In this document: positions 6,853-64,000 of the stretch, piece by piece | Layout of the letters: every line of letters begins with the position of its first letter | Position numbering within the stretch: position 1 is the first letter of the stretch | From: Candidatus Omnitrophota bacterium | GTDB lineage: Bacteria > Omnitrophota > Gorgyraeia > B26-G9 | Assembly: GCA_043806135.1 (NCBI GenBank) | Contig: JAZDHG010000034.1 | Span: 6,283 to 70,282, forward strand | DNA length: 64,000 bases | Reading direction: 5' to 3' | Position numbers and translations under genes: made by a program | The notes under the pieces: generated by a model | Told to the model about the DNA's origin: nothing | Databases searched by the model: none | Seen by the model: the letters and a program-made list of their open reading frames with translations, nothing else

Positions 6853-8181
6853 CTATGCTTTTTGTCCCGCTTTGAGAATTGTTTTTAATGAATGATGAAT
6901 TTTATCAAATAAGCCGTCACGGATGGCAGATGCCACAGCCGGGGTGTTAACCAGCACTTCAGCTGTTACCCCAAGCTTTCCATCATTATCCTTAAGCGGT
7001 ATTAATTTTTGAAAGATTACCCCTCGTAAGCACTCGCTAAGGACTTTTCTCATATAATAATGTCTTTCTGTTGCAAACATATTGATTATTTTATCTAATA
7101 CCCCGACCACACCGGAACTTGAAATAACAACATATACAAGTTTTCCGCAAGCAGATGCATCAATAGCCAGATTAATAGTTTCTTCATCAGGGATATCGCT
7201 GAGCACCAGTACATCAACATCCTGCTGCATGGCCTGCTTTATCCCGCTGACAAATGATTCTGTATCTATGCCGACCTCTCTTTGTTTGATAACACTGTTC
7301 TTTACCGGGAATACATACTCGATCGGGTTCTGAAAAGTTAAAATAACACTAGAGCGCTCGCTGTTGATCTTTTCAATAAGCGCAGCGCAGGTGGTTGTCT
7401 TGCCGCAGCCTGCCGGGCCTGTGATCACCACTAATCCCGGTTTATTATCAGCAAAAGAAGACACAATATCAGGTAATTTTAAATCTTCAAGAGTCGGGAT
7501 CGGAACAGTTATAAGATGAAATGCGGCCTCAATAGCGCCTTGCTGCATATGCACGTTTAGCCGGAAACGATAAGTACCGGCTACCGTGACAATGGTAACC
7601 GCAGTATTAAGTTCGTGTTCAACGCTTATTTTATTTGTCTGGTCTTCTGTGAGCAGGCTGAAAACCATTCTTTTAATTGCCTGCCTATCTAAAGCATCGT
7701 ATTTCATTGCCTGCAGCTGCCCTGCCTTGCGAAGCATGGGAGGATGCTCTATAGACAGATGAACATCGGTAGCCTGCTCATACATAGCCAGCTGCAGCAG
7801 GCCGATAATGTCTACCTGTTCGATCTCAACCTGAAGTTTCTGGCGGTCTGTTCTCTTGATATCAGTAATAGCAGCAGCAACCCCGTACACTTCTCCGGCC
7901 TTGATCTCAGCCGCCCGAACAATACGTGCTTTCATAACTATCGGTACTTCGAAAAAAGGAATTTTCAGATTTACTTCCAGCTCAGTATTCAAGCTCATCG
8001 GATGAAAGGATTCAAAACATACACCCGCAGCGCTCAGGTTTTTCGTTACAGTGGAGTTCCAGGCACGGGATGCGCCCTCTTCATGCAATACCCTATACTG
8101 CATAGACAGCTGCGCTCTTACCCTGGCAAACTGCCTTCTATTCAAGCCCTCCTCAAACTGATTTTTGACTTTACTATCCAT
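6853..8181 (-). CDS. Fusion of an N-terminal PilZ domain to a PilT-like type IV pilus retraction ATPase
   Basis: 442 aa. The N-terminal ~110 aa carry PilZ motifs RRQFAR (RxxxR) and NLSAAG (NxSxxG). The remainder is a full PilT: N-domain, Walker A GPAGCGKTTT, Asp box VDVLVLSDIPDEE, His-box-equivalent VVISSSG and AIRDG. Confidence 0.7.
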   Translation of the reverse strand: MDSKVKNQFEEGLNRRQFARVRAQLSMQYRVLHEEGASRAWNSTVTKNLSAAGVCFESFHPMSLNTELEVNLKIPFFEVPIVMKARIVRAAEIKAGEVYGVAAAITDIKRTDRQKLQVEIEQVDIIGLLQLAMYEQATDVHLSIEHPPMLRKAGQLQAMKYDALDRQAIKRMVFSLLTEDQTNKISVEHELNTAVTIVTVAGTYRFRLNVHMQQGAIEAAFHLITVPIPTLEDLKLPDIVSSFADNKPGLVVITGPAGCGKTTTCAALIEKINSERSSVILTFQNPIEYVFPVKNSVIKQREVGIDTESFVSGIKQAMQQDVDVLVLSDIPDEETINLAIDASACGKLVYVVISSSGVVGVLDKIINMFATERHYYMRKVLSECLRGVIFQKLIPLKDNDGKLGVTAEVLVNTPAVASAIRDGLFDKIHHSLKTILKAGQKA

Positions 8182-55052: not shown

Positions 55053-56717
55053 TTAGGCCATTTCTTTATTAATATCCAACTCCAGATCATAAAACTTAAC
55101 CCCTGCAGCGTATCCAGGGTTACCGTCATTTACTGCGACAGGAGATGTCCAAACTACTACCCCGTTACCCACAATAGGCTTCATTTTATCACGATGTATT
55201 TCAAATTCAAGAATATTTTTCGGCTGTAATTTTTCGGTTGTGACAATCTTCATTCCTGAACGCCCGACATCCTTACTCCAGCATATATGTTTCTTTTTTT
55301 GTCCGACAACTGTACATGTAACTTTATTAGATGTTTTTGAACGCTGTGACGATCTCCTTTCTTCAAATTTCCCAAAATCATGTTCGGATTGCACTTCATG
55401 CACAGAAGAAACAGAAAAAACAAGGGCCATGGCAAACCCAATCGTTAACCCGACAAGTACCCCCAACAAAAGATTAGTCAATAAATTTGGTTTAACCGGA
55501 GAATCCGGAACATCGGCAAGTTCTATTATTTCTGCATCAGGAAGCATATTGGTTCTCTGTTTTAAAATTTTTAACTCTTGGAGCTTTGCCTTAAGATCAG
55601 CATAAACTTCTCTTTTCATTTCAATATCACGATTGAGCCGGGCTAATTTAGGCTGGGTTTGAAGCGCTTTATTTAGCCTATTGGTTTGTTTTTCGTGATT
55701 TTCAATCAATGCTTCTTTTTTTCCAATTAAAGATTTTTTTTCTATCACTAAAGATTCTATCTCTGCCTTTACAATCTTATCGCTTTCCTTAGCCAGATCG
55801 ATTGTTAATTTAGCAATCGCCGCCTGAGCAACCATTACATCCGGATGATTTAAATTAAATTCTCCCATTAAAACATCCATCTTGAGATCAGCTAAACGGA
55901 TTTGTGATTTTAAGTCGTTTATAAGTTCATTATCTGTAAGAAATTTCAGGTTTAAATTTTCAGAATCATTTTTCTCCACCCGCCCTTTAATTTCAACGAT
56001 TTTAGTATTTAACATCTCTATATCAGCGTTAACAGCAGCTACATGCATGTCTAAATCAGCATATTTTTGCAGACTCAAAACTATATCCGACCCAAAGAGC
56101 ATAATCATATTATCTTGACTAGCTATTTCATTCAACTCCTCCTCAACAGCGTTAAAATCCTTTTTTGCCGTTTCGATCTCTTTTTCCAAGGCGGAAATAA
56201 TTCGCTCGACAGTTTCACTTTTTAATTTTACTCTGTTTTCAATATAGGTTTCTGCTATCGCATTTGCTAACATTGAGGCAAACAAAGGGTTCGGCTGCTG
56301 TACCTGAAGCTCTAAAACATTTGTGCCTTCTAATAGAGTAAGACTGATTTTTTTCTGTAACATACTCTTATTTAATGAGTTGGGATCCAAACCTTTAAAT
56401 TCCTCTTTCGAAAAATCTATTTTTTGCAGTGCCTTGTCTATAACAGATCTGCTCTTTATAATTTCAGCTTGTGAATTAGCAAATTGCCATCCGGTCTCAT
56501 AAGAGGGAAACTCATCTTTAGGATTGAGTTTCTCTTCCCTAACCAATATTTTTGTACTTACCTCATATATGGGTTTCACAAATACTTTAGTAGCAAAAAA
56601 AGCAGCCGCCAGTGTTATGATAATTGAGCTAGCAATAATCAGTTTACCTCTTCTAATAACATTCAGGATATCGATTGAATCAATATCATTTTGTATTAAA
56701 TTTGAATTTTTCATCAT
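55053..56717 (-). CDS. Polysaccharide chain-length determinant protein (Wzz/GumC-like, no kinase domain) with a C-terminal PilZ-like domain
   Basis: N-terminal Wzz region plus TM1, a long coiled-coil periplasmic region, and TM2 (LLTNLLLGVLVGLTIGFAMALVF). The roughly 100-aa cytoplasmic tail has RRSSQR (RxxxR) and a degenerate DVGRSG, followed by beta-strand patterning reminiscent of PilZ. Confidence 0.7.
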   Translation of the reverse strand: MMKNSNLIQNDIDSIDILNVIRRGKLIIASSIIITLAAAFFATKVFVKPIYEVSTKILVREEKLNPKDEFPSYETGWQFANSQAEIIKSRSVIDKALQKIDFSKEEFKGLDPNSLNKSMLQKKISLTLLEGTNVLELQVQQPNPLFASMLANAIAETYIENRVKLKSETVERIISALEKEIETAKKDFNAVEEELNEIASQDNMIMLFGSDIVLSLQKYADLDMHVAAVNADIEMLNTKIVEIKGRVEKNDSENLNLKFLTDNELINDLKSQIRLADLKMDVLMGEFNLNHPDVMVAQAAIAKLTIDLAKESDKIVKAEIESLVIEKKSLIGKKEALIENHEKQTNRLNKALQTQPKLARLNRDIEMKREVYADLKAKLQELKILKQRTNMLPDAEIIELADVPDSPVKPNLLTNLLLGVLVGLTIGFAMALVFSVSSVHEVQSEHDFGKFEERRSSQRSKTSNKVTCTVVGQKKKHICWSKDVGRSGMKIVTTEKLQPKNILEFEIHRDKMKPIVGNGVVVWTSPVAVNDGNPGYAAGVKFYDLELDINKEMA

Positions 56718-56740
56718 ATAATCACCCTATCTTTTTATTA

Positions 56741-57541
56741 TTAATCTTCAGCAATTTTATAGATTAAATAAGTATCCGCAATGGGTTTGATGGTTCTTCC
56801 GAAAAAGGAGAACAGGTCATCCATTTTACCTATAAAAGTTTTCGGCACATAAACAATATCTCCCGGCTGAAGAATTACATCATTTCTTACTTTTCCTTCT
56901 TTAAGCACGCTTTTTAAATCCGCCGTGAATATATGCGGAACTTTATCATATGGATTACGTATAATAACCGTGTTTTCTAAGTATGAATATTGGGCATACC
57001 CTCCGGATTTGCCTATAGCTTCCAATGCTGTCAGACGCCCCGAAATATTATACATTCCCGGATTTCTAACCTCTCCAAGCACAAGAATCTTTTTACTTCC
57101 GATTTCATTGACTATTACCGTTACCTGGGGATCAAGAATATATTTGTCCTGGAGCCTTGCTGCAATAACTTTGCTTAATTTTTCCGGGCTCAGTCCGCCG
57201 GCTTTTATTTCACCAGCAAGAGGGAGAGATATTCTCCCGTCAGGGCGTATGGTAATTGTTCTGCTTAGATCTTCATTGCGCCATACAGATACCTCTATTA
57301 CATCACCGGATTCAAGCATATACTCAGGATCAGTACCTTTTTCAAAAATTGATTCCTGCTCTTTTGCTATAGACTCTGCTTTCTCAATACTATAGTTTTG
57401 AGCAATATCCTGTTCGCGGTTAACTATATTTGTTGTCGCTGAATATGCTATAACTGAAAAAACAAGCATGCTGGCAAAAGCTAATAAAACTAATAAATTA
57501 ATTAAAACTGCCTTGATAAAAAGTTTTGATCGTTTTTTCAT
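56741..57541 (-). CDS. wza: Wza-type outer-membrane polysaccharide export protein (OPX; Poly_export + SLBB)
   Basis: Signal peptide. GDVIEVSVW..ISLPLAGEIKAGGLSPEKL (Poly_export motif) and an SLBB-like C-terminus. Confidence 0.75.
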   Translation of the reverse strand: MKKRSKLFIKAVLINLLVLLAFASMLVFSVIAYSATTNIVNREQDIAQNYSIEKAESIAKEQESIFEKGTDPEYMLESGDVIEVSVWRNEDLSRTITIRPDGRISLPLAGEIKAGGLSPEKLSKVIAARLQDKYILDPQVTVIVNEIGSKKILVLGEVRNPGMYNISGRLTALEAIGKSGGYAQYSYLENTVIIRNPYDKVPHIFTADLKSVLKEGKVRNDVILQPGDIVYVPKTFIGKMDDLFSFFGRTIKPIADTYLIYKIAED

Positions 57542-57545
57542 TTTA

Positions 57546-57776
57546 TCACCCTCTGTTTGTTAGCCGTAATAAGACCGGATTGAGATTGCTTTCGTTCCAG
57601 GTAACTTCCCATGAAGACAAGTTCCCGTCTTCGAAATGACCATTTGTGAGCATATTCGCCTGGCAAGTTAATGGAACTTGTATGAGAATAATTACACTCA
57701 CGATAAATATTATTTGCTTAATAGTTTCCCTTTTCACTGCTCTTCTCCCGTTAAATTTCATTTGACTGTGAGCCAC
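57546..57776 (-). CDS. Small secreted hypothetical, possibly a CBM-like fragment
   Basis: 76 aa. Signal-like hydrophobic stretch then NGHFEDGNLSSWEV, reminiscent of the start of carbohydrate-binding modules. Ends 4 nt before wza. Confidence 0.25.
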   Translation of the reverse strand: MAHSQMKFNGRRAVKRETIKQIIFIVSVIILIQVPLTCQANMLTNGHFEDGNLSSWEVTWNESNLNPVLLRLTNRG

Positions 57777-58005
57777 CTTTTAAAGAAGGTTCTAAAGTAT
57801 ACCTGATAAGTTGAATTTTTGCAAGGAAATTTTAAAGTTTTCTTTATTTTTTTAAAAGTTTTTTTAAAATTATAACACATTGATAATAAACATTTTATGA
57901 TAATGATACCTGCAATTTTTCTAAAATTTTACACTGATTTAAAACATCAAACCTCAGGAATATTTTCAGGAAGAAAAAGATAGGCTTTAAGTCTTTTAAA
58001 TATAA

Positions 58006-60978
58006 TTAAGCTGGCACTGCCTTATAAGCATTTATAAAAACAGACATATCTACAATCAGTTTACCTTTATCATTAGTAAAAATAGAAATAATATCATCAA
58101 AACTCATACCCTGGTTTTTCATCACATCAACCAGCTCAGCATGATCATATCCGGCAGCTACCATGGCTGCAGCAATTGCTCTATTATCAAGACCGTTATT
58201 TGATAAAAGATTGTAAGTATTTTCAGTAGTCTGCCCGCCCTGTTGAAGCCCCTTAGTTATACTGCTCCAAGAAACTGAACTATTAACCGCAGCCAAGACC
58301 ACATCTTCTGCCGAATTACCCCATAAGACTAACAAACTCACAACTTTATCTGTCTTACCCGCACCAGCATCTTCAAAAGCGCTAATAATTCTGGTCATAT
58401 CCCAACCCAGTGATTGCATTCCGATCATTAGGTTATCAACTTCACCATGGGAGCCGTCCAGCATTGCCGTTACTATTTCATCGTCACTTAAATTATTGTT
58501 AGTTAAAATCGTAAGTACTTCAAGCGACTCAAAACCATTTGTTTTTAATCCGCTGGCAATTTCCTTCCAGCTTGCACCAGCCTCTTGCACAGTGGAAACA
58601 ACTGCATCAGTTTCAAACCCGGCTTTAAGAAAGGCATCAACCAGTTCTGCGGCATGACTAGGTTTCCCCTTACTTGTAAACGCATCAATCACCTGGTTCA
58701 TATCACTGCCTTGATTCAACATCGCAGTTGCTATATCACCTGCATTATAACCGCCGGCAAGCATCGAAGTAACGATTTTTGAATTGCTTAATCCATTTGA
58801 TGTTAAAACCGTAAAAGTATCAGCAGCGCTTACACCTCCCTGCTGCAAACCTTGCGTAATCGGGTCCCAGTCAATCTTTGCCTCTATCGCAGCAGTAACC
58901 ACTTCATCAACGGAAACTCCGGCTTTAACCAAAGCAGCCACAACTGCAGCCCCCTGGCGAACCACATTGGATTCAGTTACCGTTTCTGTTTCCGTTTCTC
59001 CATCTGTGCTGGTTGTTGTAACAGACTCTTCTTTAAACGCTTCAAATATGCGGGCGCTATCCCATCCCAGGGTAACCATGCCCTGAACCATTTTGCCGAT
59101 ATTCCCTCCGCCTTTATCCATCATTGCGCTTACAACTTCCTTATCACTAAGGCCGTTATCTTTAAGGTATTGAACTATTTTATCAAAATCAGCATTGCCA
59201 AATTCCATTCCCTTGGCAATATCTTTAACCTTCATCCCTGCTTCTTTTGCAGCCGCAGCTATTTCTTCAAAGGTATATTTGCCTGATTTCATTAAAGCAC
59301 TGACCACCGATTTTCCTACTTTAACATTAACAACAATTTTATTTTTGAATGCCTTAAATATAGAATTCATATCCATTCCCAGATTGATTAGTCCGGCAAC
59401 AATACCGCCGGCATCTCTGCCGCTATCAAGCATCTTTCCTACTACCTCAATGTCGCTTAACCCCTGTTCAGATAGAATAGTATAGACCTCCTCTGAGCTC
59501 ATACCAGTTGATACTAAACCCTTGGTAATATTCTCCCAGGATGTCCCCGCCTTTCTGACTGCCGTAATAACCTCTTCTGCTGAATATCCGGCTTTTATCA
59601 AGCCTGTAACAACTGCTGCATCATCCTTAGCTCCGTCAAAAGAAGCAATAATTGTCTCCATGCTCCAGCCCAACTCGTTCATGGCGATTACCATGCTGCC
59701 AGCGCCGAAATTTGTATTCTTACGCAGAGCATCAACTATTTTCTTTTCCGTTAATCCGTTTGACTGTAAAATTTCAATGATTTCACTTATGGTTGAACCG
59801 GAATTTTTAAGGCCCAAAGATATTTTATCCCAGCTGATTCCGGCCTTACTTGCTGCACTGACAACCTCTTCTATGGTAAATTTTTTCGAGTTGATCAAAG
59901 CCACGCAAAGCAGCTCTCCCTTGGAATTTCCTTCAGTTTTAAAAGCATTAAAAATTTCCTCAGCACTTTTTCCCATAGCGATCATTGCATTTACCAGATC
60001 GTTAGTGTTAGTGCCTCCATCAAGAAGGTATCCTACAACTTTGCTTTCACTGACCCCCTGTTCTTCCATAACAGAGAACACTTCTTCAATACTCAAACCG
60101 CCGGCACTTAGTCCAGCCACTATATTTTTAATGGAAATCCCTGCTCCCTTTGCAGCAGAGATAACATCATCAGTGGAAATTCCTGATTTAACCAATGCTG
60201 CCACCACCTCAGCAGCCTTACGCACAATACCAGTGTCTACATTTTTAAATGACTTAAAAATTTGGTCAGTGCTCATGCCTTGGGCAATCATTCCCTTAAC
60301 AATATCACTTGTAGTATAGTTGCCATCAAGCATCATTGTTACAATCTGCCTATCTTCATAACCGGCATTCTGCAAGATCAAAAGAACTTCCTGAGCCGAT
60401 GCGCCGGACTTTTTAAGCGCAGTGACAATTTCCGTATATGAATATCCCTTTGCAATTAATGATTTTGTCATGTCTTCATAACTTACCCCAGCATTTTCAA
60501 GTGCTGAGTTATCAGCCATAACCTCTTTTTGATTATTAACTAACGCGGCAGGCACTACTTTAGCGGCCTCTTCTTTGGAAAATACCTCAGCAATCAAATT
60601 ATAGGCAACATCCCCATATCCCAGAGAAATAAGCCCCAAAGCAATATCATTGCTGGAAAAACCTGATTTCTTTAGAGTGCTTACAATATTACTTAAATCT
60701 GTTCCTGCACTCACAAATCCGGTTATTAAACCTTTTACATCTTCAACGGTTGAAGCGCTTTGCTGAGTATTACTACTTCCTCCCGTATTTATATACTCTG
60801 TAGTCACTGGTTTTCTGTTAACTTGATCATCGCTAATTTCCTGATTTACATTTGTATCTGATGTTTGCGGGTCAATCTGTTCCGGCAAAATAGCGCCATG
60901 AAGCATCCCGTAAGCTCCAAGCGTAAACAGAAAAACTATCATGAGATTAATAATAGTGAACATTTTCATGATAAGCAC
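58006..60978 (-). CDS. Large secreted tandem-repeat protein (about 9 helical repeats of ~95 aa) in the PilY1 position. Putative pilus-associated factor of unknown family.
   Basis: 990 aa. Signal peptide MKMFTIINLMIVFLFTLGAYG. Repeats follow the pattern ..VVAALVKAG.S.D.V..A...AGISW..I..GL...G.S.EEV...L...GLS...IV..MLDGG....D.V..M...G.....I..AFK. Confidence 0.6.
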   Translation of the reverse strand: MLIMKMFTIINLMIVFLFTLGAYGMLHGAILPEQIDPQTSDTNVNQEISDDQVNRKPVTTEYINTGGSSNTQQSASTVEDVKGLITGFVSAGTDLSNIVSTLKKSGFSSNDIALGLISLGYGDVAYNLIAEVFSKEEAAKVVPAALVNNQKEVMADNSALENAGVSYEDMTKSLIAKGYSYTEIVTALKKSGASAQEVLLILQNAGYEDRQIVTMMLDGNYTTSDIVKGMIAQGMSTDQIFKSFKNVDTGIVRKAAEVVAALVKSGISTDDVISAAKGAGISIKNIVAGLSAGGLSIEEVFSVMEEQGVSESKVVGYLLDGGTNTNDLVNAMIAMGKSAEEIFNAFKTEGNSKGELLCVALINSKKFTIEEVVSAASKAGISWDKISLGLKNSGSTISEIIEILQSNGLTEKKIVDALRKNTNFGAGSMVIAMNELGWSMETIIASFDGAKDDAAVVTGLIKAGYSAEEVITAVRKAGTSWENITKGLVSTGMSSEEVYTILSEQGLSDIEVVGKMLDSGRDAGGIVAGLINLGMDMNSIFKAFKNKIVVNVKVGKSVVSALMKSGKYTFEEIAAAAKEAGMKVKDIAKGMEFGNADFDKIVQYLKDNGLSDKEVVSAMMDKGGGNIGKMVQGMVTLGWDSARIFEAFKEESVTTTSTDGETETETVTESNVVRQGAAVVAALVKAGVSVDEVVTAAIEAKIDWDPITQGLQQGGVSAADTFTVLTSNGLSNSKIVTSMLAGGYNAGDIATAMLNQGSDMNQVIDAFTSKGKPSHAAELVDAFLKAGFETDAVVSTVQEAGASWKEIASGLKTNGFESLEVLTILTNNNLSDDEIVTAMLDGSHGEVDNLMIGMQSLGWDMTRIISAFEDAGAGKTDKVVSLLVLWGNSAEDVVLAAVNSSVSWSSITKGLQQGGQTTENTYNLLSNNGLDNRAIAAAMVAAGYDHAELVDVMKNQGMSFDDIISIFTNDKGKLIVDMSVFINAYKAVPA

Positions 60979-61445
60979 CCATCCTTATTGAAACACTTTA
61001 TGAACATCATGTTGTTTATATCCAATAATTAAATTTTTTAAATATAAAAATATAAGCCGAATTGCCATTAATATCTTCGGCAACCCGGCTGTCATAGCAA
61101 TCGCTTTAGACCCGCAGTTTTACCCCGGCTTCGTTTTTTATTCTCCGCCGGGTCCGGCAAGCTTACCTTGAGATATTAACCCCATAAGCGTAACCGGAGC
61201 CCCTGCCTTTCGGAAGGTTTGTCTTTTCGGACACTATTTTACAAATATAGTTATTAATCTCTTTATAAAAGTATATCATGAAATACAATAACTTGCAACC
61301 AGAAAACTTATCTTCTTGCATTTAAATCTGTTGTAGATATAAAGAAGCAGCTGTAAAATCCGCAAAAGAAATATAATCCAGATATGATAAGGTTTCTAAA
61401 ATAAGAAGCAGTTTAAAAAAACAGCAGGTTATAATGTTTTAGTTT

Positions 61446-62720
61446 TTAAGGAGTGGTATACCCTCGCCAGGAAGTTACAAAATAACCTAAGATTAAAGCT
61501 TCAGGATCTTCTCTTGACGCAATATCATAATGATATTTCAAGCCTGTAGTACATTCTACTGTTTTACCGACAACACTGCCATAAAAAACAGTGTCCGGGC
61601 CAATTCGAACATCAGCATTAGGCGCGTAAATATTCCCATAAAATCCACTGGCATGCGAACTAAGATTAAATGAAGCTACATTGTCAGTACAATAAATCTT
61701 AAACCTTAGAGGATCATAGGTAGTATTGTCAATTTTTGCCCCATTTCCAAAAGTAGTATTTCCATTTAGCCATAATTTGGCAGTATTTCCAGGATTTATT
61801 AAAATCTTGCTGTTAACACCAAGCTTCAGTTCCCCGATCACATAAATATCAACATTAGCATTAATTTCAAGTATAGCATCCTTTTCAAGCTTAATAGAAT
61901 CATATTCTACCTCATTATCGTTTATTGTAAACGTCGTACCGTTTGACACAGTAAGCGCCCCCCGGTTAGGTGCATATACTCCGGTCTGATCAGGTATTGA
62001 CAGCAGGGGTTTATCCTTATTTAACCATTTCACGGCTCCGTTATATACGCCGGAGCCTGTCAGTAAAATCACATCCGCAGGGTCTCCTCCTAAGCCAATA
62101 GTAATATCTCCAGTAACAATACTGTTGTTGCCGATTTTAATTGTTTTAGCAGCTATTGAATTAGTAACAAAGTCTGCATCTGTGCCTATATTTCCCGCTA
62201 CACCATAAAATCCAATCCGGGAATCATAGCTGTCAACTAAAGCATTGCTTCCGATATTAATGCCGCTATAACCCATGATCGCGTCTTTAAAAAGCTTCTC
62301 CTCAACAGCAATAACCTTAACTGTTTTCGAAGCCATCTGGTTGGCCTGGTTTGGAAAGTAACCTATTGATTCAACTTCATAAGATTTAGGCTCAGTGACT
62401 AAATTAATCACAGTTACAATGAATTCACCAATTGTATCTCCGCCAGGGATACCAATATTTCCTGTTCTTGTCCATTTTACGCCTGTTACTGTTGTCCAGC
62501 CCTCTGTTGCAAGGAATTCCCTTCCGCCATGATTTACTTCCAAGAGCCCAAGTTCCGCGCCGGCTTCAGCAATATGCATTGCTTCAACTTCCGCGTAGGT
62601 TCTTATGGAAATTTGCGCATTTGAATGCACTGATGCCACATAACTTGTACCCAAAATAACCAGGCCCAGAATCAGAATAAGCGATAATAATAAAGCGCTA
62701 CCTTTTTTATTAAATAACAT
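61446..62720 (-). CDS. PilX-like type IV pilus minor component (PilX_N domain plus beta-helix-like C-terminus)
   Basis: N-terminus KKGSALLLSLILILGLVILGTSYVASV .. AEAGAELGL matches PilX_N. The C-terminal G/N/T-rich repeats suggest a parallel beta-helix. Confidence 0.6.
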   Translation of the reverse strand: MLFNKKGSALLLSLILILGLVILGTSYVASVHSNAQISIRTYAEVEAMHIAEAGAELGLLEVNHGGREFLATEGWTTVTGVKWTRTGNIGIPGGDTIGEFIVTVINLVTEPKSYEVESIGYFPNQANQMASKTVKVIAVEEKLFKDAIMGYSGINIGSNALVDSYDSRIGFYGVAGNIGTDADFVTNSIAAKTIKIGNNSIVTGDITIGLGGDPADVILLTGSGVYNGAVKWLNKDKPLLSIPDQTGVYAPNRGALTVSNGTTFTINDNEVEYDSIKLEKDAILEINANVDIYVIGELKLGVNSKILINPGNTAKLWLNGNTTFGNGAKIDNTTYDPLRFKIYCTDNVASFNLSSHASGFYGNIYAPNADVRIGPDTVFYGSVVGKTVECTTGLKYHYDIASREDPEALILGYFVTSWRGYTTP

Positions 62721-62732
62721 GCTGCCTTTCCC

Positions 62733-63386
62733 TTAAAAATTCCGCATCAGAATACTCGTAACTGCATTTGACTGCAGAACACGGCTTCCTAAAACAGTTT
62801 TTGCGGTTGTTAATCTTATTGTTATATTTCTTACCGCTGCTAAAATTCCCACACTGCCAAGTCCTGTACCTCCTGAGCTGAAATTTAAGGCGCTAACATT
62901 ACGCGCAATAATATAAATTCCTCCCGGCCTGGCGCTTGAAGCATCCGGGGCCACGACTCTTTCTAATATTGCCGGGTCATCGTCATTTAAATGATAAACC
63001 ACATAATCAACACTTCCGGTTAAATTCATGAGGTTATTAATAGAAGGGATTCTTAAAACAAGCACATTATCACCGGTTGTGTACGTCTTGCCGCTGATTG
63101 ATCGAGAATTTTCAATAACAATCGCCCATTCAATATCTTTTCTGGCCCAATCCAGGCTTTGTCGTGTTTGCCCATGCAAATCCAGTAATACCGTGCCTGT
63201 TATAAAACTTCGCTGACAGCCAATATATGCGCCAATAATAACCGTGGATATTCCCACAAATATTGCTGTTGAGACGAGCACTTCAACTAAGGTAAACCCC
63301 GTTAGAAAATTACGCTTTTTTGCTTTCTTAAAAAATTCCTTTTTTGAAACCCAATCTATTATGTTTTGCATAAACATTGTTTTCAT
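62733..63386 (-). CDS. Type IV pilus minor pilin (PilW/FimT-like, prepilin-type N-terminal methylation domain)
   Basis: GFTLVEVLVSTAIFVGISTVIIGAY class III signal/N-methylation motif. Confidence 0.6.
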   Translation of the reverse strand: MKTMFMQNIIDWVSKKEFFKKAKKRNFLTGFTLVEVLVSTAIFVGISTVIIGAYIGCQRSFITGTVLLDLHGQTRQSLDWARKDIEWAIVIENSRSISGKTYTTGDNVLVLRIPSINNLMNLTGSVDYVVYHLNDDDPAILERVVAPDASSARPGGIYIIARNVSALNFSSGGTGLGSVGILAAVRNITIRLTTAKTVLGSRVLQSNAVTSILMRNF

Positions 63387-63476
63387 GCAAATTGCCCTTT
63401 CTTAACTTTTATCTCCACTTCTTTTCTGTGTTTTTTCTAACGGGGTAAACCCTTTTTGTCTTTTCATGATTTTTTT

Positions 63477-63896
63477 TTAAGAGCTGATCCCTTCATCCGT
63501 TATATAAGTAACCAAGCTTCTGGTCAGAGACTGCCCTGCAGGAGAATCCCAGGTAATTGTAACCGTAACCCGAACGATTCTGCTAATCGGGAAAACAGGT
63601 TCAGGAGGAGAATCAACAAGTATCTGCCCTTGCGGATTGCTAAGCTGGGTAAATCCTGCAGATATGAACGTTGATGATGGAGTAGTAATAATTGTACTGA
63701 ATTGAGTTTGACGGATTAATTCCATCTGCTCTTCAAGCATATTAATAACCAGATTATTGGCTTGCACCTCGGCAATAAACATCGTACCTTTGGAAAAAAG
63801 CATGAATATTCCCATTAATGATGCACTCAAAATAATCATTGTCATAAGTATTTCTACTAAAGTGAATCCTTTGTTTTTTCTTACTTTAAAACTCAT
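63477..63896 (-). CDS. Type IV pilus minor pilin PilV-like
   Basis: MSFKVRKNKGFTLVEILMTMIILSASLMGIF prepilin motif. 139 aa. Confidence 0.7.
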   Translation of the reverse strand: MSFKVRKNKGFTLVEILMTMIILSASLMGIFMLFSKGTMFIAEVQANNLVINMLEEQMELIRQTQFSTIITTPSSTFISAGFTQLSNPQGQILVDSPPEPVFPISRIVRVTVTITWDSPAGQSLTRSLVTYITDEGISS

Positions 63897-64000
63897 ATCA
63901 GCTCCGAACCGATTATGAAGCTCACCCGGGCTCCCTCTGAAATTTCGCAGAAATTTCGAGGACTTAGTCCCGGGAATGCTTTACATCCCACGGGGAAAGC
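63893..64000 (-). CDS. 3' end of an upstream gene, translationally coupled to the PilV-like gene
   Basis: Open frame from the window edge, ...FPGLSPRNFCEISEGARVSFIIGSELI, ending in TGA that overlaps the downstream ATG (ATGA). Identity unknown, possibly another pilus gene. Confidence 0.3.
   Translation of the reverse strand, partial: AFPVGCKAFPGLSPRNFCEISEGARVSFIIGSELI

What the first reader, a model, noticed from the sequence alone, without database searches (positions are those of the whole stretch)
58006..64000. Minor-pilin operon (PilV-, PilW-, PilX-like) followed by a 990-aa helical tandem-repeat protein where PilY1 is expected
The order on the minus strand is an upstream gene (ATGA-coupled), then PilV-like, PilW-like, PilX-like and a 990-aa secreted protein. 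In canonical fimU-pilVWXY1E operons the gene after pilX is the large beta-propeller/vWA tip adhesin PilY1. Here that slot holds an all-alpha protein of about nine 95-aa repeats with no recognisable PilY1, vWA or beta-propeller features. This suggests an alternative, undescribed pilus tip or priming factor. Alternatively it is a pilus-secreted matrix protein linking the pili to the adjacent polysaccharide locus.
Basis: partly seen in the sequence, partly recalled or inferred. Interest (0 to 1): 0.7.

Follow-up and report, generated by a model that had tools for sequence, protein, structure and literature searches.

The report
c-di-GMP riboswitch-gated secreted helical-repeat protein
The large repeat protein next to the pilin-like genes is a real, previously undescribed exported all-helical protein of an uncultured Omnitrophota bacterium. 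It has its own promoter and a c-di-GMP-sensing RNA switch, so it looks like a signal-induced surface or envelope protein rather than a stand-in for the pilus tip adhesin PilY1.

Summary
Three prepilin-like genes lie on the minus strand (139 aa, 217 aa, and 424 aa with DUF7305). They are followed by a 990-aa signal-peptide protein that is entirely alpha-helical and has no PilY1, vWA or beta-propeller features.

That gap holds a conserved sigma-70-type promoter, a c-di-GMP-I riboswitch (Rfam RF01051, above threshold) and an intrinsic terminator. The terminator's 5' arm is the 3' strand of the aptamer, which predicts an ON switch.

- **Riboswitch link is conserved.** The same riboswitch-plus-terminator design precedes relatives of the protein in six independent loci, some with no pilin genes nearby.
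- **Pilin link is facultative.** The pilin triad occurs without the repeat gene in two of four close lineages and in 79 distant loci.
- **Protein anatomy.** It has nine ~100-aa modules, each of seven 14-aa helix-turn units (module pLDDT 93). There is no specific structural or sequence match. About 60 relatives turned up among 1.8 billion representative proteins.

Best reading: a c-di-GMP-induced, Sec-exported structural solenoid acting in surface attachment, matrix or envelope. It is co-regulated with the neighbouring PilZ-gated polysaccharide export genes. A pilus-tip role is not excluded but has no positive support. Interest is moderate.

The parts
58006..60978 (-). Gene for the 990-aa (probably 987-aa, ATG at 60969) exported helical-repeat protein. 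It has a signal peptide (aa 1-28), an acidic disordered linker (aa 29-76), nine modules of about 100 aa and seven helices each (starts near aa 77, 155, 253, 352, 449, 551, 673, 774, 874), and a conserved C-terminal tail (aa 976-990).
   Evidence: ORF. Orthologues at 60-71% identity along the whole length. AlphaFold full-length model with mean pLDDT 79. Single-module model with pLDDT 92.9 and pTM 0.84. Periodicity of 14 and about 100 aa.
61270..61298 (-). Sigma-70-type promoter: -35 TTGCAA, 17-nt spacer, extended -10 TGATATACT.
   Evidence: Listed by the promoter scan. Nearly identical in L001 and L002 (alignment A1) and in L010. Coordinates.
61076..61230 (-). c-di-GMP-I riboswitch aptamer in an expanded form. 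Order of elements: 5' motif CCGAAAAGACAAACC, the P1a hairpin with a GAAA loop, a 75-nt insertion, then the GU-AAAAC junction and P1b.
   Evidence: The Rfam RF01051 core hit covers 61076-61145 at 41.7 bits, above the gathering score of 35. The orthologous position in L002/L008 holds a canonical aptamer at 84.7 bits. The 5' motif is invariant in the window, L001 and L002. The pair that closes the junction across the insertion covaries: A-U in the window, G-C in L010.
61124..61198 (-). The 75-nt two-hairpin insertion (hpA 61153-61198, hpB 61124-61152) between P1a and P1b of the aptamer.
   Evidence: The same two-hairpin topology is predicted independently for the window and L010. The two sequences align collinearly and without gaps. 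In the 20 pairs I proposed, 39 of 40 cells are standard pairs, with two two-sided compensatory changes.
61040..61090 (-). Intrinsic terminator: a 12-bp stem (AGCCGGGUUGCC / GGCAAUUCGGCU) followed by a U-rich tract. Its 5' arm overlaps the 3' strand of aptamer helix P1b (61082-61090).
   Evidence: RNAfold predictions. The same design with compensatory stem changes occurs in L001, L002, L010, L011 and L014.
61446..62720 (-). PilX/GspK-like pseudopilin (424 aa) with a C-terminal DUF7305 domain. It is a neighbour of the repeat gene, not an obligate partner.
   Evidence: Pfam DUF7305 at E=9e-19 and a weak PilX_N hit. Relatives match pAdhesive_15 and PilX_N. Relatives sit next to pilM.
62733..63386 (-). 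PilW/GspJ-like prepilin (217 aa as listed; the true start is probably further downstream) with a G|FTLVE cleavage motif.
   Evidence: N_methyl and TIGR02532 hits, with N-terminal-only matches to ComGE/GspJ/HpsC, all below family cut-offs. The orthologue in L002 is 202 aa.
63477..63896 (-). PilV/GspI-like prepilin (139 aa) with a G|FTLVE cleavage motif.
   Evidence: N_methyl at 27.4 bits and TIGR02532 at 21.1 bits, both above cut-off. PilV and GspI models match only the N-terminus.
63893..64000 (-). 3' end of an unidentified upstream gene whose stop overlaps the next start (ATGA).
   Evidence: Translation ends in ...GSELI* in frame.
57546..57776 (-). 76-aa ORF: the N-terminal remnant of a large secreted CBM_4_9/beta-propeller gene that follows the repeat gene intact in other lineages.
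   Evidence: 59-63% identical to the N-termini of L002:13208-14449 and L004:3555-5369. Those proteins match CBM_4_9, BNR_4 and SBBP.
55053..57541 (-). Wza-like polysaccharide export protein (56741-57541) and a Wzz-GNVR-PilZ fusion (55053-56717). These are the first genes of the downstream polysaccharide locus.
   Evidence: Pfam Poly_export and SLBB. Wzz, GNVR and PilZ. The same order follows the orthologue in L001.

Best explanation
**What it is.** The 990-aa ORF encodes a member of a small, undescribed family of Sec-exported, acidic, all-alpha solenoid proteins found in Candidatus Omnitrophota and scattered metagenomes.

**How it is regulated.** The gene is its own regulatory unit.
- A sigma-70-type promoter at 61270-61298 starts a leader of about 290 nt.
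- The leader contains a c-di-GMP-I aptamer, immediately followed by an intrinsic terminator.
- The terminator's 5' arm is the 3' strand of aptamer helix P1b.
- At low c-di-GMP the terminator should form and transcription should stop. At high c-di-GMP the ligand-bound aptamer should hold that strand, so RNA polymerase reads into the gene. This is an ON switch.
- Any read-through from the pilin genes upstream would meet the same gate.

**What the protein probably does.** It is exported through Sec. Its nine seven-helix modules probably stack into an elongated rod. I propose that it serves as a structural surface or envelope component (attachment scaffold, matrix or coat). It would be produced together with the neighbouring polysaccharide, whose export co-polymerase carries a c-di-GMP-binding PilZ domain.

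**Status of each step.**
- Shown here: the gene, the riboswitch match, the conserved terminator overlap, the conserved link between the protein family and the riboswitch, the fold prediction, and the facultative pilin adjacency.
- Inferred: ligand binding, the ON logic, export beyond the inner membrane, the rod shape and the structural role.
For: **Riboswitch.**
- RF01051 scores 41.7 bits in the window, above the gathering score of 35.
- The orthologous position scores 84.7 bits in L002/L008 and 42.2 bits in L001.
- It also precedes more distant family members: L010 at 38.7 bits (tRNA genes upstream, no pilins), L011 at 74.9 bits and L014 at 72.4 bits.
- About 188 kb was scanned with Rfam. Every c-di-GMP-I hit lies upstream of a family gene or its operon.

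**Terminator.** In all six riboswitches a terminator overlaps P1b, with compensatory stem changes between lineages.

**Promoter.** It is conserved in four lineages.

**Other c-di-GMP links.** PilZ-domain genes lie next to family members in L011, L012 and L014. A Wzz-PilZ fusion lies downstream in the window and in L001.

**Export signals and copy number.** Signal-peptide-like N-termini occur in the orthologues and in most distant relatives. Module number ranges from 1 to 14.

**Fold.**
- Full-length model: mean pLDDT 79.
- Single-module model: pLDDT 92.9, pTM 0.84.

**Precedent.** In Bacillus thuringiensis the c-di-GMP riboswitch Bc2 lies in the 5' untranslated region of the mRNA for the collagen adhesion protein Cap, and the paper's title calls the protein riboswitch-regulated (PMC4933901, listed).
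Against: - No experiment or transcript data exist, so ligand binding and ON versus OFF are read from sequence only.
- The window's aptamer is non-canonical, with a 75-nt insertion at the ligand-binding junction, and scores only 6.7 bits above threshold. It could be impaired.
- Two family loci show no riboswitch: L012, and L004 where only 259 nt of upstream sequence is available.
- Nothing shows that the protein crosses the outer membrane. No known sorting signal was found, so it could stay in the periplasm.
- The same 14-aa repeat occurs in DotG/TrbI-type type IVB secretion proteins, in the region between the N-terminal hydrophobic segment and the C-terminal TrbI domain.
- The structural role is inferred from fold and context alone.
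Confidence: 0.55

Rival explanations
1. **First reader's main idea.** The protein is a pilus tip or priming factor that replaces PilY1 and works physically with the PilV/W/X-like minor pilins.
For: - It lies directly downstream of the three pilin-like genes in the window and in the L002/L003/L008 lineage.
- Like PilY1 (my own knowledge), it has a Sec signal peptide rather than a prepilin signal.
- No strong terminator follows the PilX-like gene, so read-through transcription is possible.
- c-di-GMP riboswitches are known to control pilus genes in other bacteria (my own knowledge).
Against: - It has its own promoter and a riboswitch-gated terminator.
- The pilin triad keeps its conserved neighbourhood but lacks the repeat gene in L015/L016 and L017.
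- None of 79 distant DUF7305 loci has a large gene or a family member downstream. Several continue with pilM or another PilX-like gene.
- Family members occur without pilins in L010, L011, L012 and L014.
- There is no PilY1, vWA or beta-propeller feature.
- Relatives of the PilX-like protein match a Pfam putative adhesive domain.
Confidence: 0.1
2. **Substrate of the pseudopilus.** The pilin-like triad forms the tip of a type II secretion or type IV pilus filament that pushes the repeat protein across the outer membrane. It then acts as a matrix protein.
For: - The pattern of two Glu5 prepilins followed by a large prepilin without Glu5 resembles the GspI/J/K tip complex (sequence; the comparison is my own knowledge).
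- The protein has a Sec signal but no recognisable outer-membrane sorting signal.
- Adjacency is kept in two lineages at 60% protein identity.
- Regulation by c-di-GMP and the neighbouring PilZ-gated polysaccharide export genes fit a matrix role.
Against: - The facultative linkage argues against this as it does against the tip-factor idea.
- No secretion ATPase, platform or secretin gene lies in the immediate neighbourhood.
- No interaction evidence exists.
Confidence: 0.2
3. **Periplasmic spacer or scaffold.** The protein stays in the periplasm as a rod-like spacer for an envelope-spanning machine such as the polysaccharide exporter, rather than acting on the cell surface.
For: - The same 14-aa repeat fills the region between the N-terminal membrane segment and the C-terminal TrbI domain in DotG/IcmE-like proteins P0005 and P0012.
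- Module number varies from 1 to 14 across relatives, as expected for a length-setting spacer.
- In the window and L001 the gene lies directly upstream of Wza-like and Wzz-PilZ genes.
Against: - In L002 and L004 the downstream neighbour is a secreted CBM/beta-propeller protein, not an exporter.
- The polysaccharide adjacency in the window appears secondary, because it sits behind a truncated remnant of that gene.
- There is no membrane anchor or lipobox.
Confidence: 0.15

Closest known systems
PilY1 / PilC tip adhesins of fimU-pilVWXY1E-type minor-pilin operons (Pseudomonas, Neisseria)
   Same: A large Sec-signal protein encoded just after PilV/W/X-like genes.
   Different: - It has no vWA domain or C-terminal beta-propeller and is all-alpha.
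- A 467-nt gap with a promoter, riboswitch and terminator separates it from the pilin genes.
- It is not a constant partner of this pilin triad.
c-di-GMP riboswitch-controlled adhesin genes, e.g. Bc2 RNA upstream of the collagen adhesion protein Cap in Bacillus thuringiensis (PMC4933901)
   Same: A c-di-GMP riboswitch in the 5' untranslated region of a gene for a large exported surface protein. The proposed logic is that c-di-GMP controls expression of that protein.
   Different: - The regulated protein belongs to an unrelated, undescribed all-alpha family.
- The host is a diderm Omnitrophota bacterium.
- The window's aptamer carries a 75-nt two-hairpin insertion.
TcpF (Vibrio cholerae) and CofJ (enterotoxigenic E. 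coli), proteins secreted by type IVb pili through the minor-pilin tip (my own knowledge)
   Same: A soluble Sec-exported protein encoded beside minor-pilin genes, which could be carried out by the filament tip.
   Different: No sequence or fold similarity, a different pilus class, and no evidence of interaction here.
Repeat region of DotG/IcmE-TrbI proteins of type IVB secretion systems (P0005, P0012)
   Same: The same 14-aa helix-turn repeat in tandem in an extracytoplasmic protein. P0005 matches at E=1.6e-13 and 28% identity over 34% of the query.
   Different: Those proteins have an N-terminal membrane segment and a C-terminal TrbI domain and lie in dot/icm-type clusters. The window protein has neither.
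HEAT/W2/MIF4G-like alpha-alpha superhelices, RecX, and de novo designed helical repeat proteins

Membership tests
PilY1/PilC pilus tip adhesin | C-terminal PilY1/PilC beta-propeller domain, often with an N-terminal vWA domain | tested here: not met
   No such Pfam or NCBIfam hit even at E up to 1. The AlphaFold model is helical apart from one short hairpin.
PilY1/PilC pilus tip adhesin | Constant co-occurrence and co-transcription with the core minor pilins | tested here: not met
   The gene is absent after orthologous triads in L015/L016 and L017 and after 79 distant PilX-like genes. It has its own promoter and a gated terminator. Co-transcription itself cannot be tested with these tools.
Type IV pilus / type II secretion minor (pseudo)pilins (the three upstream genes) | Prepilin-peptidase motif G|F-x-x-x-E followed by a hydrophobic helix | tested here: met
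   The 139-aa and 217-aa proteins have G|FTLVE. N_methyl and TIGR02532 score above cut-off for the 139-aa protein. The 424-aa protein has G|SALLL without Glu5, as in GspK/PilX-type proteins (the comparison is my own knowledge).
Type IV pilus / type II secretion minor (pseudo)pilins (the three upstream genes) | Specific assignment as PilV, PilW and PilX (or GspI, GspJ and GspK) | tested here: inconclusive
   Equivalog models match only the N-terminal helix and stay far below their cut-offs. PilX_N gives E=0.71 for the window protein but E=5e-6 for relative P0106. Relatives lie next to pilM, which favours a type IV pilus.
c-di-GMP-I riboswitch (Rfam RF01051, GEMM-I) | Covariance-model score at or above the gathering threshold | tested here: met
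   41.7 bits against a threshold of 35 in the window. The orthologous site in L002/L008 scores 84.7 bits.
c-di-GMP-I riboswitch (Rfam RF01051, GEMM-I) | P1a hairpin with a GNRA tetraloop, plus the conserved junction nucleotides: a G before the closing pair (G20 equivalent) and an A after it (A47 equivalent) | tested here: met
   This holds if the upstream 5' motif is used. It then reads GAAAAG-AC-AAACC, CCUUCC-GAAA-GGCAGG, then ...GU-AAAAC. G is retained, as in the canonical L002 aptamer. The closing pair covaries across the insertion. Assigning these positions to Vc2 residues is my own knowledge.
c-di-GMP-I riboswitch (Rfam RF01051, GEMM-I) | Binds c-di-GMP and changes gene expression | not testable with these tools
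   Only the overlap of the terminator with P1b, conserved in six loci, was shown.
UBA-like domains (Pfam UBA_9, UBA_3) | A three-helix bundle of about 40 aa matched along the model | tested here: not met
   The whole-protein scores (49.6 and 48.5 bits) exceed the cut-offs only by summing many partial repeats. The best stretch covers positions 13-36 of 43. The predicted unit is a seven-helix module.
Hormogonium polysaccharide secretion pseudopilins (HpsB-D with HpsA) | Match to the NCBIfam Hps equivalog models | tested here: not met
   HpsC scores 16.8 bits against a cut-off of 200, over the N-terminus only. The 990-aa protein has no HpsA hit.

The most novel reading that the evidence does not exclude
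The repeat protein is a c-di-GMP-triggered extracellular rod that the adjacent PilV/W/X-like tip complex exports or displays. Together with the neighbouring CBM/beta-propeller protein or polysaccharide, it would form the attachment organelle or coat by which these ultra-small Omnitrophota bind host cells. Its riboswitch would represent a new expanded subclass of the c-di-GMP-I aptamer, with a structured two-hairpin domain inserted at the ligand-binding junction.
Probability: 0.15. Interest if true: 0.7.

Novelty: new variant of a known kind. Interest (0 to 1): 0.45.

Why it matters
Omnitrophota are uncultured, mostly ultra-small bacteria thought to live attached to other cells. Type IV pili and giant surface proteins are the proposed attachment tools (PMC10066038). 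That paper contains neither the word "c-di-GMP" nor the word "riboswitch".

This locus points to a defined c-di-GMP regulon in the phylum:
- a riboswitch-gated family of exported helical-repeat proteins;
- PilZ-fused polysaccharide export proteins;
- PilZ-fused secretion ATPases;
- ComFB-CheR proteins.

That yields testable candidates for the switch to the attached state. The protein is also a natural example of a very short (14-aa) helix-turn repeat that resembles designed repeat proteins. Its riboswitch variant, with a structured insertion at the binding junction, could show how much such aptamers tolerate. None of this settles a long-standing question, and the function is still inferred.

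Tried and rejected
**Searches that found nothing useful**
- The Foldseek afdb50 library was unavailable.
- The PDB sequence search returned only designed helical repeats and weak UBA hits.
- The viral structure library gave no match with E at or below 0.001. The PDB fold searches list no S-layer protein, and the only viral entry is a weak partial one.
- L004 has only 259 nt upstream of the gene and no riboswitch.
- L012 has no Rfam hit and no conserved riboswitch motif, although a PilZ gene follows the repeat gene.
- NCBIfam gave nothing for the CBM/beta-propeller neighbour that would make it PilY1-like.

**Readings I considered and set aside**
- Two tandem aptamers in the window. The upstream half scores only 16.7 bits. 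I replaced this with a single expanded aptamer for three reasons: the 5' motif is invariant across lineages, L010 has the same collinear architecture, and the junction-closing pair covaries across the insertion. L001 carries a rearranged version that I could not resolve.
- UBA-domain membership. The hits are an artefact of summing repeats.
- A relationship to Hps pseudopilins. The scores are far below cut-off.

**Not done**

Full report
**Observation**

- An upstream gene ends at 63893 and overlaps the next start codon in ATGA.
- A 139-aa protein (63477-63896) and a 217-aa protein (62733-63386) each have a classical G|FTLVE prepilin cleavage motif. They match the N_methyl and TIGR02532 models.
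- A 424-aa protein (61446-62720) begins KKG|SALLL without Glu5. It has a DUF7305 domain (E=9e-19) and a weak PilX_N match.
- The 990-aa ORF spans 58006-60978.

Family-specific PilV, GspI, GspJ and Hps models match only the shared N-terminal helix and stay far below their cut-offs. The names PilV/W/X-like are therefore reasonable analogies, not assignments. Distant relatives of the 424-aa protein lie next to pilM, match PilX_N, and match Pfam's putative ice-binding-like adhesive domain pAdhesive_15. This places the triad with type IV pilus systems and suggests the PilX-like protein may itself be adhesive.

**The repeat protein**

The protein has a Sec-type signal peptide. Alignment with orthologues puts the probable start at the ATG at 60969. 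An acidic linker of about 48 residues follows and is predicted disordered. The rest is repeats.

BLOSUM autocorrelation peaks at lag 14, with a second-order period near 100. AlphaFold2 on the four-sequence alignment gave mean pLDDT 79.3 and pTM 0.45. It predicts about 63 helices of roughly 10 residues separated by 4-residue turns, grouped in nine modules of seven helices, with confidence kept across module boundaries. Each of the seven helix positions has its own consensus, shared by all modules. One module, modelled with 29 module sequences, gave pLDDT 92.9 and pTM 0.84.

**No known family or fold**

- Pfam and NCBIfam give no PilY1, vWA or beta-propeller hit. The nominal UBA_9 and UBA_3 scores come from adding many partial matches.
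- Foldseek of the full model against the PDB finds only generic solenoids and designed repeat proteins, with TM no higher than 0.19.
- The PDB sequence search finds only designed helical repeats.
- The viral structure library gives nothing significant.

There is also no similarity to any pilus protein.

**How rare the family is**

Among 5.8 billion clustered proteins only four close relatives appear, plus one DotG/TrbI-type protein sharing the repeat. A profile search of 1.84 billion representatives finds 63 proteins at E<0.001. Most of these have signal-peptide-like N-termini and carry 1-14 modules. A 366-aa member (P0006) keeps the same N-terminal region and C-terminal tail with only three modules.

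The window's UvrC is 100% identical to a protein of an NCBI MAG labelled Candidatus Omnitrophota, on a 70,770-bp contig. One orthologue locus is also labelled Omnitrophota. The ComFB-CheR fusion upstream of the triad in L002 and L015 is described as typical of that phylum (PMC12448109).

Rfam places a c-di-GMP-I riboswitch at 61076-61145 on the minus strand (41.7 bits, gathering score 35). The orthologous gap in L002/L008 holds a textbook aptamer at 84.7 bits, and L001 holds one at 42.2 bits.

Alignment of the gaps shows three conserved elements:
- a promoter (TTGCAA, 17 nt, TGATATACT);
- a nearly invariant leader;
- the invariant 5' aptamer motif CCGAAAAGACAAACC.

Directly after the aptamer sits a 12-bp hairpin followed by a U-tract. 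Its 5' arm (AGCCGGGUUGCC) is the 3' strand of aptamer helix P1b. The same overlap, with compensatory stem changes, occurs in all six riboswitch loci examined. Because aptamer and terminator compete for the same strand, ligand binding should prevent termination. That makes it an ON switch. This logic is inferred, not measured.

No convincing terminator follows the PilX-like gene. Read-through from the pilin genes is therefore possible, but it would meet the same gate.

**The riboswitch, not the pilins, is the conserved partner**

Family members behind a c-di-GMP-I riboswitch:
- the window;
- L001;
- L002/L003/L008;
- L010, where the short member P0006 has two tRNA genes upstream and no pilins;
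- L011 and L014, where the operon runs riboswitch, small ORF, PilZ, unknown gene, repeat protein; in L011 a giant ORF of more than 7,800 aa follows.

L012 lacks a detectable riboswitch but has a PilZ gene directly downstream.

The pilin triad is less faithful.
- Its orthologue in L015/L016 (65% identity, same upstream synteny from IleRS to ComFB-CheR) is followed by Peripla_BP, NMT1 and MCP genes.
- In L017 (71% identity) it is followed by a convergent tgt gene.
- In 79 more distant DUF7305 loci, the next gene is pilM, another PilX-like paralogue or a housekeeping gene. It is never a protein above about 540 aa and never a family member, and the conserved riboswitch motif is absent.

This type of minor-pilin cluster therefore has no regular PilY1 slot.

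**Downstream context**

In L002 and L004 the repeat gene is followed by a large secreted CBM_4_9/BNR-SBBP beta-propeller protein, which has no PilY1 signature. In the window only a 76-aa N-terminal remnant of that gene survives (57546-57776). After it comes a polysaccharide locus:
- a Wza-like exporter;
- a Wzz-GNVR-PilZ fusion;
- a priming sugar transferase;
- a flippase;
- several B12-binding radical-SAM enzymes and methyltransferases.

L001 has the same arrangement. The polysaccharide adjacency therefore looks secondary, but it does put two c-di-GMP-responsive elements side by side.

**The aptamer is unusual**

In the window and in L010 the elements run in this order: 5' motif, P1a with its GAAA loop, a 75-77-nt insertion, then the junction and P1b.
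- The two sequences align collinearly and without gaps.
- The insertion folds into the same two hairpins in both.
- Of the 20 pairs I proposed, 39 of 40 cells are standard pairs. There are two two-sided compensatory changes, one of them in the pair that closes the junction across the insertion: A-U in the window, G-C in L010.

L002 lacks the insertion, and L001 has a rearranged form I could not resolve. L010, L011 and L014 carry an extra copy-like segment of the P1b 3' half. With so few sequences this remains a lead.

**Interpretation**

The best-supported reading is a c-di-GMP-induced, Sec-exported structural solenoid used at the cell surface or in the envelope during an attached or matrix-producing state.

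The regulatory half is well supported by comparative evidence. The functional half is inferred from four things: the fold, the signal peptide, the variable module number, and neighbours such as PilZ proteins, polysaccharide export genes, a carbohydrate-binding secreted protein and giant ORFs.

Three rivals remain open: a pilus-tip factor, a substrate of the pseudopilus, and a periplasmic spacer like the repeat region of DotG-type proteins. The first is weakened by the co-occurrence data.

A c-di-GMP riboswitch in the 5' untranslated region of an adhesin mRNA is a known arrangement (Bc2 and Cap in Bacillus thuringiensis, PMC4933901). I therefore rate this as a new variant of a known kind, of moderate interest.

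Noticed in passing
window 61124-61198 (-); L010:1062-1138: The c-di-GMP-I aptamer carries a conserved two-hairpin insertion of about 75 nt between P1a and P1b, at the ligand-binding junction. The sister lineage L002 has the canonical aptamer without it, and L001 has a rearranged version.
   Followed up: partly
L011:7610-7733, L014:4180-4299, L010:1117-1224: These aptamers contain an extra segment of about 40 nt inside the P1b loop that resembles a second copy of the P1b 3' strand (GCUAUGAUCGCCGGGCG...). It could offer an alternative pairing partner.
   Followed up: no
window about 61231-61269 (-): The ~40-nt leader between the -10 box and the aptamer (ACTTTTATAAAGA..TAA.AAC.ATATTTGTA) is almost invariant in the window, L001, L002 and L010, although the encoded proteins are only 40-70% identical. 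It could be an operator or an RNA element; unexplained.
   Followed up: no
window 6853-8181 (-): A 442-aa protein fuses an N-terminal PilZ domain to a T2SSE-type secretion/pilus ATPase domain. This is another c-di-GMP receptor wired to a secretion or pilus motor in the same genome.
   Followed up: no
window 55053-56717 (-): The polysaccharide co-polymerase (Wzz + GNVR) is fused to a C-terminal PilZ domain. The same fusion follows the orthologue in L001, suggesting post-translational c-di-GMP control of polysaccharide export.
   Followed up: partly
window 57546-57776 (-) and 57796-57824 (-): The 76-aa ORF is a truncated remnant of a large secreted CBM_4_9/BNR-SBBP beta-propeller gene that is intact in L002 and L004. 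A TTGCAA-N17-TATACT promoter-like site precedes it.
   Followed up: yes
window about 28958-54056 (-): The polysaccharide locus contains at least five B12-binding radical-SAM enzymes and several methyltransferases, an unusually high number for one sugar-polymer cluster.
   Followed up: no
L011:11336-21275 (+): A giant ORF of more than 7,815 aa (running off the locus, with an N-terminal Peptidase_C39 hit) directly follows a riboswitch-controlled operon of small ORF, PilZ, unknown gene and repeat-family protein. This ties the giant Omnitrophota ORFs to c-di-GMP control.
   Followed up: no
L002:4108-5511, L015:5673-8247: ComFB and ComFB-CheR genes lie just upstream of the orthologous pilin triad, with an additional PilZ protein in L015. 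ComFB is a c-di-NMP receptor family (PMC12448109).
   Followed up: partly
L005:3379-5697; P0012: DotG/IcmE-TrbI proteins of type IVB secretion clusters carry long tandem arrays of the same 14-aa helix-turn repeat between the N-terminal membrane segment and the TrbI domain.
   Followed up: partly
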